From Rhina ancylostomus (lineage: Eukaryota): DNA of 64,000 bases. The DNA lies in NCBI GenBank assembly GCA_030265395.1, contig JARFYF010000063.1:44275175-44339174 (forward strand), read 5' to 3'. Made by a program: the position numbers. Each line of letters starts with the position of its first letter. The stretch's first letter is position 1. Of the stretch, positions 42,001 to 45,000 are shown piece after piece.

Positions 42001-45000
42001 ACACTCATGCAACTAGTTGGAGACATTTTCCATCACACATCTGATTTGTATCTTGTAGAGAATGGAAAAGCTTTAGGAAATTGAGGCATGAATCATTTGT
42101 TGTCGAATTCTAGCCTCAGACCTGTCCTTGTACCCACAGCATTGATTTGGCAAGNNNNNNNNNNNNNNNNNNNNNNNNNNNNNNNNNNNNNNNNNNNNNN
42201 NNNNNNNNNNNNNNNNNNNNNNNNNNNNNNNNNNNNNNNNNNNNNNNNNNNNNNTGATTTGGCCAGTGTAATTAAGTTTCTGTTCACTGATAACCTTCTA
42301 AGTTATTATTTGTGGAAAATTAGGCAATGGCAGTGCCATGACATGTAAAGGATAGGTGGTTAGACCTCTTGTTTTTGCAGATGGTCATTGCCTGAAACTC
42401 AAGAGAATGCAACAAGTTAAATGCTACTTGCTAGTTACCAGCTCAAGGTTGGATATTGTCCTAGACTTGTCACAGATTACTTTATTGTCTGAGAGCTGGG
42501 AAGTGAGTTGAATAGTGTGCAATCATCAGCCTGTCTCTGATCTTCTGAGAGATGGTTAGGTATTAAGGACATTGTGCTGAGGATATTCTGGAGCTGATGC
42601 AATTGGCCTCTGATAATCACAGCCTTCTTCATTAATGCTAAATTCAACTCCAAACAATGGAGAATTTCTCTCCTGATTACCATTGAATTCAGCTTTCCTC
42701 TGGATCTTTGATCACACGTCAGCCAATTTCTGCCTTGATATCATGGACCATTCTCACCACTGGAACTCAATTCCTTTTGTCATGTTTGGACCAAGGTTGA
42801 AATGAGATCTGCAGCCAATTGCTTCTGGCAGAATCCAAATTGAACAGGTTACTCACAAGTAAGTGCTACTTGAAAGCACTGGAAATATTTTCCATCACTT
42901 TTCTGATGATGGAAAGTAGTGGTAATTGCTATACATGTTCCGGAGTCAGATGCAACTCAGCATCTTGAATTACTCTTCGTAGGGTGTGCATGAATAAATG
43001 TGTGCATGTATAATTAGACCAAGCATAAAATGATTTCTTTTGTAACCAGTGTTGCTTCTTTTTTTGCCTCACGTGGACAAAAATAACAGCCACAATTATT
43101 AAAGGTAAAGGAATTAGAGATTACATTAGTAAGTCATTTATTTTAAAATTCAACCTTCCTTATGTCCAACATCATCCCTGGCCATGCATATTATGTGTTT
43201 GGATGTCTACAGGTATCATCTGGAAAATAAATGTAGAAAGTGTGTAGCAATGCCTATCAGGCCACTATCTATGTAGCTTTCCCTCTCCTCAACCTTGTTT
43301 AGTTTTTGTCCATAGCAATACAGTAGTGATTAAAGGAGCTCGATAGCATGAAAAATTAATTCCAGCATTCAAATTCAAAGATTTAGCGTTGGGGACTCAA
43401 AGCATCAGTTAAGAAGTGGAGAGAAAAGCCATTGCAGGAGATGCACTGACTGCAACTAGAAAGACGGATATAGTATCAAACAAGGAAATCCGATCAGCAG
43501 GACAATCGGAATCCTCAGAGGAGGAGGATGGAGATATGGGCAGTGATAACACACTGAAGGATTTCTGACAGGGAAAGGTTGGAGATGGATCTATAGTTTG
43601 CAGTGACTGAGGAACCAAGGGTAGGATTTTAAGGAGAAGGGTAGCTTGAAGGGTAGGGAGGCAGCATACTAGGAGAAATGTTAACACTATCAGCAGGCAG
43701 AACTGGTGAACAGTTTGATGAGACTAGGGTCAAGGCTGCAGGAATTTAGTTTTCTTGGGCAGCTTGGTCAAGGCAGGGAGTAGGGTAGATGGTGTGGGGG
43801 TGGAGATGGACATAAAGCAGAGAAAGATGTTGGTTTGGGACTAGGCTAGAGAGACAAATAACTATATGAAAAGCAGAAAAAATTCCGATACTGTAAATCT
43901 TAGCACCTGTGGAAAGAGAAACGGTTAACAGAGCGAGGGGAACTTTGAGTTGGACTAAAGGAAAGAAGTGAAGTGGCAGGGACATGTGATTTTAATTATA
44001 GCGAAAAGGAAGTCCATGAGCTTCCAATGTAATCTTGAAGGAAAGAATGCTGGAGGTGCTTCGGGGATGGGGTTGTTCAGTGCTGGCACTGTTTGTGGCA
44101 AAAAGCTGAGGTTATTTTTACATTCTAGGAGCATCCTAAATACTGGAGAGGAGAGCTGTACGTTATAGGCTCTATGTTTTGTGATGCTATGATGGTGTTT
44201 AGTTATGTTGTCTGATGTGAATAGATAAATCTGTTACCCAGCATAGTCATTCAAACCTTGTGTCCCATAAACTACAGGGAATGGAGATGAAGTCAGCCAT
44301 ACCAATAAATGACCTTGAGGTGTAAGAGTATGACTGAGCAGGTTAATAGTTCTAGAAGTATTGTGGTTGGAATTTTAAATCGCTACTGTAAATGATTTCA
44401 GGAGAGTTTTTTTACGGGGGTGTGGTTGGATAGAAATTGGTTGAAGTGAATGGATTTCTGAGGAGATGATCTGATAACATGGGAGAAGTGAGGCCACATG
44501 AGATATTATGATCACTGGGTGGTTATGAATATGATCCTGTAGGTTTATGTGGAAAAAGACTGAAAAAGAAACGTTGAGGAAAGAGAGAGAATGATGGATT
44601 AAGGTATGTGAGTATCATAATTTCAGCAGTGCGGAGCCTCAGACAACCTACCATGGAGGACCTAATGTTCATTTGACACAGTACAGATATCAAAGTGGTT
44701 GCAGTCTGTAAGATGATGGTTGATTGTATGGAGGCAACAAAACTCAAACATGAGCAATAGTTGTAGATGTACTACAAACTGCAGCCTCAGGAATATCTAG
44801 AAGTAGAATTTCCTTCCTGGCTTTGGGTGTTGGTTTGGAAAAGTTCCTTAAGTTGTGTAAAATAATGGTCACTGCTTCTAAGTAATAAAGTTTATTATTT
44901 AGAAATTGGTAGTTTTCAGCTTGTAGTCTCTTGAGAAAGATTCGTACCTGTTTTTATGCTACAGTAAGTCACTGTGGGTTTGTCATCTAAACTGTAAAAA

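What the first reader, a model, noticed from the sequence alone, without database searches (positions are those of the whole stretch)
43090..43128. Frame-preserving EDEM3 cassette microexon between the PA domain and the acidic tail, with two in-frame donors
Seen: aacag|CCACAATTATTAAAG^GTAAAGGAATTAGAGATTACATTA|gtaagt inside phase-1 intron 19, too short for the ORF track. The 39-nt form gives DR-ATIIKGKGIRDYIN-LDM. The internal AAG|GTAAAG donor after 43104 gives a 15-nt form, DR-ATIIK-DLDM. Both keep the frame and the KDEL. Recalled but not verified: a longer mammalian EDEM3 isoform has a short insert at this junction resembling AAILKGKM..YI. Inference: an ancient regulated switch, possibly three-way, that adds a basic/hydrophobic peptide next to a very acidic disordered tail and could tune ERAD substrate or partner binding.
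Basis: partly seen in the sequence, partly recalled or inferred. Interest (0 to 1): 0.8.

Follow-up and report, generated by a model that had tools for sequence, protein, structure and literature searches.

The report
Conserved EDEM3 alternative microexon, two donors
This is a real small alternative exon of the ER quality-control gene EDEM3, shared from sharks and rays to mammals and already present in gene annotations of other species, so it is correct but ordinary.

Summary
It has a distal GTAAGT donor and an internal AAG|GTAAAG donor after 43104.

Splice signals and frame alone are not above chance. The intron holds 189 open frame-preserving AG..GT candidates, 5 with comparably good signals.

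Homology decides. Of 94 named EDEM3 proteins examined, 20 carry a long insert and 9 a 4-5-residue insert at exactly this junction. They come from cartilaginous fish, teleosts, frogs, birds, a lizard and mammals.

Insert peptides from four other species hit 43089-43127 as the single best of 127,924 positions in the window. The window peptide shares 8-9 of 13 residues with 19 of the 20 long forms.

So this is the orthologue of an ancient three-way EDEM3 splice choice: skip, short or long. It is already annotated elsewhere, including a skate (short form) and a shark (long form).

Untested here: use in this species, regulation, and any effect on ERAD. Ten literature searches found no paper on this exon.

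The spliced model was never joined; exons were searched one by one.

The parts
40273..40458 (+). Upstream constitutive EDEM3 exon (end of the PA region), ending in phase 1 with donor gtaaat
   Evidence: translation P0001; 98% identity to Pristis pectinata EDEM3; tblastn block 40272-40457.
42987..43008 (+). Two TGCATG hexamers (42987-42992, 43003-43008), 103 and 87 nt upstream of the acceptor. Possible RBFOX-type sites; a lead only.
   Evidence: The window total of 57 on both strands equals the chance expectation of 56, so only the pairing near the exon is notable, and that is post hoc..
43050..43069 (+). Displaced pyrimidine tract (17 of 20 pyrimidines at -40..-21) holding two TGC triplets (43053, 43065). 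The stretch next to the acceptor is purine-rich (6 of 18 pyrimidines at -20..-3).
43088..43089 (+). Acceptor AG (cag). No other AG in the 38 nt before it.
43090..43104 (+). 15-nt core of the alternative exon, common to the short and long forms; it encodes the conserved A-T-I-I-K.
   Evidence: Rhinoraja longicauda X1 has ATIIK at this junction, and 8 further named proteins carry a 4-5-residue insert..
43105..43110 (+). Proximal (internal) donor GTAAAG. It overlaps the Gly-Lys codons of the long form.
   Evidence: U1 duplex energy -6.8, rank 7 of 298 GT sites in the intron, equal to the constitutive donor at 40459 (-6.9).
43105..43128 (+). 24-nt extension present only in the long (39-nt) form.
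   Evidence: Positions 6, 7, 9, 12 and 13 match the consensus of the 20 long forms.
43129..43134 (+). Distal donor GTAAGT.
   Evidence: energy -5.6, rank 25 of 298.
45324..45838 (+). Last coding exon: acidic disordered tail, C-terminal helix, KDEL and stop.
   Evidence: P0002; 95% identity to Pristis pectinata EDEM3. D+E 46, K+R 10 of 170 residues.

Best explanation
43090-43128 is the orthologue, in an elasmobranch close to Pristis, of an alternative exon of EDEM3 present across jawed vertebrates. It lies in the phase-1 intron between the exon that ends the PA region and the last exon. Three mRNAs are possible, all in frame and all keeping KDEL. Skipping joins 40458 to 45324. The proximal donor after 43104 gives a 15-nt microexon that adds five residues. 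The distal donor after 43128 gives a 39-nt exon that adds 13 residues and changes the next residue from Asp to Asn. The peptide is basic and hydrophobic and is placed at the hinge between the folded PA domain and the very acidic disordered tail. Shown: the sequence anatomy, the orthology, and the existence of all three forms in annotated proteins of other vertebrates. Inferred: that this species makes the forms; that the weak acceptor (displaced pyrimidine tract) and two near-equal donors make the choice depend on trans-acting factors; and that the insert changes how the PA and tail modules, which modulate substrate-specific ERAD in mouse EDEM3, act.
For: Sequence as described. Gene identity. 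Of 94 named representatives examined, taken from the 120 listed of 691 hits, 58 show the skip junction, 20 a long insert, 9 a 4-5-residue insert and 7 something else. Among 12 cartilaginous-fish representatives, Rhinoraja longicauda X1 has the short form and Chiloscyllium punctatum X1 a long form. The window site is the top hit of 127,924 positions for 4 of 4 valid insert queries. It shares 8-9 of 13 residues with 19 of the 20 long forms and 5 of 13 with the seahorse form. In those 20 forms, positions 1, 3 and 5 are invariant and positions 6, 7, 10, 12 and 13 are held in 19 of 20. Both donors rank in the top 8% of the intron's 298 GT sites by U1 pairing energy, the proximal one equal to the neighbouring constitutive donor. 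The acceptor has a displaced pyrimidine tract. Manica et al. 2021 (PMC7926307; abstract and passages seen) report that deleting the PA domain or the disordered tail leaves mannose trimming intact but changes the turnover of two model substrates.
Against: There are no transcript data for this species. The only listed protein of the closest named relative, Pristis pectinata, is the skip form, as are 7 of the 12 cartilaginous-fish representatives. Most supporting proteins are computed isoform models (names with X numbers), and I could not see their transcript support. The window exon is 39 nt, whereas tetrapod long forms add 16 residues and Chiloscyllium 14, so the distal donor has moved during evolution. 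Window position 10 is R where 19 of 20 long forms have P, and position 8 is G where none has G. Signals and frame alone are matched by 4 other sites in the same intron. No regulatory or functional test was possible. The TGCATG pair and the TGC triplets are post hoc observations in one genome.
Confidence: 0.85

Rival explanations
1. The exon is real but is a two-way switch in this species: only one of the two donors is used, and the other is tolerated sequence.
For: For any one cartilaginous fish only one insert form is listed: short in Rhinoraja, long in Chiloscyllium. The distal part of the insert is the less conserved part (positions 8 and 10 differ in the window).
Against: Both donors are intact and strong. 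The frame stays open through the extension and ends on a perfect GTAAGT. Y-I at positions 12-13 is conserved. Both forms are listed for Bos mutus, and within frogs, birds and seahorses.
Confidence: 0.3
2. The exon is a relic. The sequence is inherited but is no longer spliced into mRNA in this lineage, which makes only the skip form.
For: The only Pristis pectinata protein listed is the skip form.
Against: An unused 39-nt stretch in a 4.8-kb intron would not be expected to keep its acceptor, two donors, an open frame and 9 of 13 residues since the split from sharks and bony vertebrates. A single annotated isoform is weak evidence of absence.
Confidence: 0.07
3. A chance pseudo-exon: AG, GT and an open frame arising by accident in an AT-rich intron.
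For: There are 189 frame-preserving open AG..GT intervals in the intron, 5 with good signals.
Against: It is rank 1 of 127,924 positions for four independent insert peptides, with a wide margin. It lies in the right intron, strand and phase.
Confidence: 0.01

Closest known systems
Annotated insert-bearing EDEM3 isoforms of other vertebrates. Long: Chiloscyllium punctatum X1, Falco naumanni X1, Bos mutus X3, Kogia breviceps X7. Short: Rhinoraja longicauda X1, Apus apus X2, Bos mutus X2.
   Same: Same gene and same junction, directly after ...SDKAKDR. The conserved core is A-[TA]-I-[FIL]-K in all but two of the nine short forms (Pelodytes ADIFK, Mastomys AILK). The choice among skip, 4-5 residues and a long insert is the same, as is the Asp-to-Asn change of the next residue in the long form.
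   Different: The window's long form adds 13 residues, against 14 in Chiloscyllium and 16 in tetrapods. It has G-I-R where most have M/I-I/V-P. No isoform with the insert is listed for the closest relative, Pristis pectinata.
Neural microexons dependent on SRRM4/nSR100 (class recalled from the literature, not from a call)
   Same: The 15-nt form is in the microexon size range and frame-preserving. It sits next to a disordered region and is deeply conserved. There are TGC triplets and a displaced pyrimidine tract upstream of the acceptor.
   Different: Nothing here shows neural or SRRM4-dependent inclusion. The search for EDEM3 with SRRM4 gave 2 unrelated papers. The 39-nt form exceeds the strict size limit. 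Not filed as a member.
Cassette exons with tandem alternative 5' splice sites
   Same: Two in-frame donors lie 24 nt apart on one exon, with similar U1 pairing energy.
   Different: This is a general mechanism rather than a family. Which donor wins, and where, is unknown here.

Membership tests
EDEM3 orthologue (GH47 + PA + acidic tail + KDEL) | GH47 and PA regions collinear with a named EDEM3 | tested here: met
   tblastn with Pristis pectinata EDEM3 gives 17 collinear blocks on the + strand, 4056-45835. That protein matches Pfam GH47 (55-493) and PA (680-770).
EDEM3 orthologue (GH47 + PA + acidic tail + KDEL) | Acidic C-terminal tail ending in KDEL | tested here: met
   the tail ends in DKDEL plus stop. 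D+E 46, K+R 10 of 170 residues.
Vertebrate EDEM3 alternative exon at the PA/tail junction | Lies in the intron directly after ...SDKAKDR, same strand, phase 1, length a multiple of three | tested here: met
Vertebrate EDEM3 alternative exon at the PA/tail junction | Peptide homologous to the inserts of other species | tested here: met
   rank 1 of 127,924 positions for 4 of 4 valid queries; 8-9 of 13 residues identical to 19 of 20 long forms, 5 of 13 to the seahorse form.
Vertebrate EDEM3 alternative exon at the PA/tail junction | Internal donor after the fifth codon, giving the short form | tested here: met
   AAG|GTAAAG after 43104, with pairing energy equal to a constitutive donor. Short forms are listed in 9 of 94 named proteins. 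Use in this species was not tested.
Vertebrate EDEM3 alternative exon at the PA/tail junction | Inclusion seen in transcripts of this species | not testable with these tools
   No RNA data and no eukaryotic genome or transcript collection were on hand.
SRRM4-dependent neural microexons | Length of at most 27 nt | tested here: inconclusive
   The 15-nt form meets it; the 39-nt form does not. The size limit is recalled.
SRRM4-dependent neural microexons | UGC-containing element shortly upstream of the acceptor | tested here: inconclusive
   TGC at 43053 and 43065. A triplet is expected often by chance, and no cross-species check was possible.
SRRM4-dependent neural microexons | Neural-specific, SRRM4-dependent inclusion | not testable with these tools
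   No expression data. One search found no relevant paper.
RBFOX-regulated exons | (U)GCAUG in the flanking intron within about 300 nt, conserved across species | tested here: inconclusive
   Two TGCATG lie upstream at 42987 and 43003, and one GCATG downstream at 43346. The window-wide count equals the chance expectation (57 against 56). Conservation is not testable.

The most novel reading that the evidence does not exclude
The Lys-Gly-Lys codons of the long form double as the proximal 5' splice site (AAG|GTAAAG), so protein sequence and splice choice are locked together. The skip/short/long ratio would then be a rheostat, kept since the common ancestor of jawed vertebrates, that sets how the PA domain and the acidic tail tune substrate-specific ERAD timing by EDEM3. 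G and K are each held in 19 of 20 long forms. The one lizard protein with Asp in place of Gly, which by the genetic code cannot keep GT there, is listed only beside skip forms.
Probability: 0.25. Interest if true: 0.5.

Novelty: already known. Interest (0 to 1): 0.3.

Why it matters
It confirms that a reader working from raw sequence can find a 15/39-nt exon that ORF-based methods miss. It also suggests that an annotation for this species listing only the skip form, as the closest named relative's does, would be incomplete. Biologically, the exon marks the PA/disordered-tail hinge of EDEM3 as a site held under selection in all major jawed-vertebrate groups. The one domain-dissection study I could read (PMC7926307) used a single form and does not mention isoforms (0 hits for isoform, splic and exon). 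Comparing the three forms in an EDEM3 knock-out background would be a cheap, well-defined experiment. As a discovery it is modest, because the exon is already in public gene models of many species.

Tried and rejected
Structure: AlphaFold2 of the Chiloscyllium long isoform with a 40-sequence vertebrate alignment gave mean pLDDT 37.5 and pTM 0.31. That is too poor to say whether the insert is ordered or touches the PA domain. No fold search was run on it.

Cluster look-up, meant to show which skates and sharks share the insert-bearing clusters, did not complete (database switched off).

The third protein search, aimed at the junction region of the shark long form, returned 12 proteins, all seen before.

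Rfam over the whole window gave 0 matches, so no intronic RNA gene explains the conservation. The minus strand at the site holds only short stop-to-stop frames of up to 63 aa.

Pfam on the single exon peptides gave nothing for the exon before the microexon, and only a below-cut-off match for the tail (PGAP1_2nd, 18.7 bits against a cut-off of 25), taken as noise.

Literature: ten searches found no paper describing this exon.
- PMC12727881 concerns another EDEM3 exon, tied to rs78444298 (passages).
- PMC12974184 only says that ZMYND11 had no effect on EDEM3 splicing (passage).
- PMC8208053 and PMC11582697 only name the gene (passages).
- A 2026 bioRxiv preprint on GenomeProt reports two mouse Edem3 proteoforms from an alternative 3' splice site with peptide support (passages). 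I could not tell whether that event is at this junction, because figures are not held.

In one search a fifth query (seahorse) was cut from the wrong place by my script and is dropped. The script also hit the time limit after printing.

The 26 unnamed proteins among the 120 listed were left out of every count, because their origin is unknown.

Full report
**What is in the sequence**

- The upstream exon ends at 40458 (…GATAGAG|gtaaat), with one base of a split codon left over.
- At 43088-43089 there is a CAG acceptor.
- 43090-43128 is a 39-nt stretch followed by gtaagt.
- Inside it, after 43104, lies AAG|GTAAAG.
- The last exon starts at 45324 behind ttag and ends in DKDEL plus stop.
- The contiguous translation of 43089-43127 is ATIIKGKGIRDYI.
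- Fifteen and thirty-nine are both multiples of three, so all three possible products keep the frame.
- With the distal donor, the split codon that follows reads Asn instead of Asp.

I did not build, search or fold a joined (spliced) model. Each exon was translated and searched on its own. At 13 residues the microexon is too short for any database search of its own.

**The gene and the organism**

- The exon before the site (61 residues) is 98% identical to EDEM3 of Pristis pectinata. It found 691 proteins at E ≤ 0.001, and every named protein among the 120 listed is an EDEM3 or alpha-1,2-mannosidase, or an unnamed or hypothetical product.
- The tail exon is 95% identical to the same Pristis protein and 58-75% identical to the other elasmobranch representatives.
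- tblastn with the Pristis protein gives 17 collinear blocks on the + strand from 4056 to 45835.
- That protein matches Pfam GH47 at 55-493 and PA at 680-770, and the junction in question follows residue 792.

The window is therefore an elasmobranch EDEM3 locus, not human. The site lies 22 residues after the PA match, at the start of the acidic tail (D+E 46, K+R 10 of 170 residues). The exon numbers 19 and 20 were not checked to the digit.

**Is it more than chance?**

By splice signals and frame alone, no.
- The interior of this intron holds 1,126 AG..GT pairs 9-60 nt apart.
- Of these, 189 are frame-preserving and open in the required phase.
- Five, this one included, have a YAG acceptor and a GTRAG donor.

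Homology singles this site out.
- I took the first 13 insert residues from four named proteins (Chiloscyllium, Falco, Bos mutus, Pyxicephalus).
- I scored them without gaps against all six frames of the window.
- In 4 of 4 cases 43089-43127 was the best of 127,924 positions, scoring 37-42 against 24-28 for the runner-up.
- A fifth query was mis-cut by my script and is dropped.

**What relatives show**

Of the 120 proteins listed, I set aside 26 that carry no name, because their origin is unknown. In the other 94 I read the residues that follow …SDKAKDR.
- 58 continue directly with the tail (skip form).
- 20 carry a long insert.
- 9 carry a 4-5-residue insert.
- 7 show something else: read-through into the intron in three Callorhinchus models, partial or aberrant models in the rest.

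By group (groups assigned by me from the names):

| Group | Skip | Long | Short | Other |
|---|---|---|---|---|
| Cartilaginous fish | 7 | 1 | 1 | 3 |
| Ray-finned fish | 0 | 1 | 1 | 1 |
| Coelacanth | 1 | 0 | 0 | 0 |
| Amphibians | 13 | 6 | 4 | 1 |
| Birds | 10 | 9 | 1 | 0 |
| Other reptiles | 9 | 1 | 0 | 0 |
| Mammals | 18 | 2 | 2 | 2 |

- The skate Rhinoraja longicauda X1 has exactly the five residues encoded by 43090-43104.
- The shark Chiloscyllium punctatum X1 has a 14-residue insert that shares 9 of its first 13 residues with the window.
- Bos mutus has both a short (X2) and a long (X3) form.
- In the 20 long forms, positions 1, 3 and 5 are invariant, and positions 6 (G), 7 (K), 10 (P), 12 (Y) and 13 (I) are held in 19 of 20.
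- The window agrees at 8-9 of 13 positions with 19 of the 20 long forms and at 5 of 13 with the seahorse form. It differs at positions 8 (G) and 10 (R).

Caveats:
- These are representatives of clusters at 90% identity, not a random sample.
- Most are computed isoform models whose transcript support I cannot see.
- The only protein listed for Pristis pectinata, the closest relative, is the skip form.

**How it most likely works**

The exon has a weak acceptor.
- The 18 bases next to the AG hold only 6 pyrimidines.
- The pyrimidine tract (17 of 20) is displaced to -40..-21 and contains two TGC triplets.
- No other AG lies in the 38 nt before the acceptor.

Both donors pair well with the 5' end of U1. 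The energies are -6.8 for the proximal donor and -5.6 for the distal one. These rank 7 and 25 among the 298 GT sites of the intron, against -6.9 for the constitutive donor at 40459 (a crude measure that allows out-of-register pairing).

A short exon with a weak acceptor and two near-equal donors is the anatomy expected of a factor-dependent choice among skip, short and long. This is inference.

Two TGCATG hexamers lie 103 and 87 nt upstream. The window-wide count of the hexamer equals chance (57 against 56), so this is a post hoc lead to RBFOX-type control and no more.

The proximal donor overlaps the Gly-Lys codons of the long form. This may explain why G and K are so well kept. The one long form with Asp at position 6 (Pogona) cannot have GT there, and it is listed beside skip forms only (n = 1, inference).

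**Effect on the protein**

The insert adds three basic and five large hydrophobic residues at the hinge between the folded PA domain and the acidic tail.

Manica et al. 2021 (PMC7926307; abstract and passages read) define the modules GH47, IMD, PA and IDD in mouse EDEM3. They report that deleting PA or IDD spares mannose trimming but changes the turnover of two model substrates. The words isoform, splic- and exon do not occur in that paper.

It is therefore reasonable, but untested, that the insert modulates these two modules. My attempt to see whether the insert is ordered failed, because the AlphaFold2 model was too poor (mean pLDDT 37.5).

**Comparison with what is known, and novelty**

The exon is the orthologue of one already present in public gene models of many vertebrates, with both donor forms. 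I therefore rate it already known.

I do not file it under SRRM4-dependent neural microexons or RBFOX targets. Their defining feature, regulated inclusion, could not be tested.

Ten full-text searches found no paper that describes this exon. A 2026 preprint reports two mouse Edem3 proteoforms from an alternative 3' splice site, at a position I could not determine.

**What stayed unchecked**
- Supplementary tables, where exon catalogues are kept, were closed and may already list this exon.
DNA-level conservation of the splice sites and flanking motifs, and expression in this species, therefore remain unchecked.
- From memory only, and not checked here, human EDEM3 also has a reference isoform 16 residues longer than the common one. 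I did not look at human sequence.

**Verdict**

Regulation and function remain open. Interest is low to moderate.

Noticed in passing
window 57772-58182, 58245-58550, 63056-63448 (+): A torsin-family gene lies downstream of EDEM3 on the same strand. Its pieces match Pfam Torsin (E 7.8e-39) and TOR1A_C (E 6.1e-20). The G+C rise at 54-58 kb (0.42-0.46) may mark its promoter region.
   Followed up: partly
proteins P0014, P0015, P0017 (Callorhinchus milii, UniProt models) compared with window 40459 onward: After ...SDKAKDR these three models continue with S-K-F-C-T.... This resembles a read-through of the exon's donor into the intron: the window would read G-K-F there. They are probably intron-retaining or mis-built models, not a fourth isoform.
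   Followed up: no
proteins P0006, P0008, P0024, P0025, P0027 (sharks) compared with P0042: Shark skip forms begin the tail with Asn (DR|NL...), whereas rays and tetrapods have Asp. That implies an A as the last base of the upstream exon. Yet the shark Chiloscyllium long form begins with Ala, which needs a G there. This cannot be resolved without the shark DNA.
   Followed up: no
window 42155-42254 and seven other N runs: A 100-N run lies inside the same intron, 835 nt upstream of the microexon. There are 548 N in the window in all. They were left as they are.
   Followed up: no
protein P0087 (Mastomys coucha X3): This rodent short form has four residues (AILK) rather than five. It may reflect an acceptor shifted by 3 nt, and could relate to the mouse Edem3 alternative 3' splice-site proteoforms mentioned in the GenomeProt preprint.
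   Followed up: no
window 43047-43049: A second CAG with its own pyrimidine stretch lies 40 nt upstream of the exon's acceptor. Using it would add 40 nt and break the frame.
   Followed up: no
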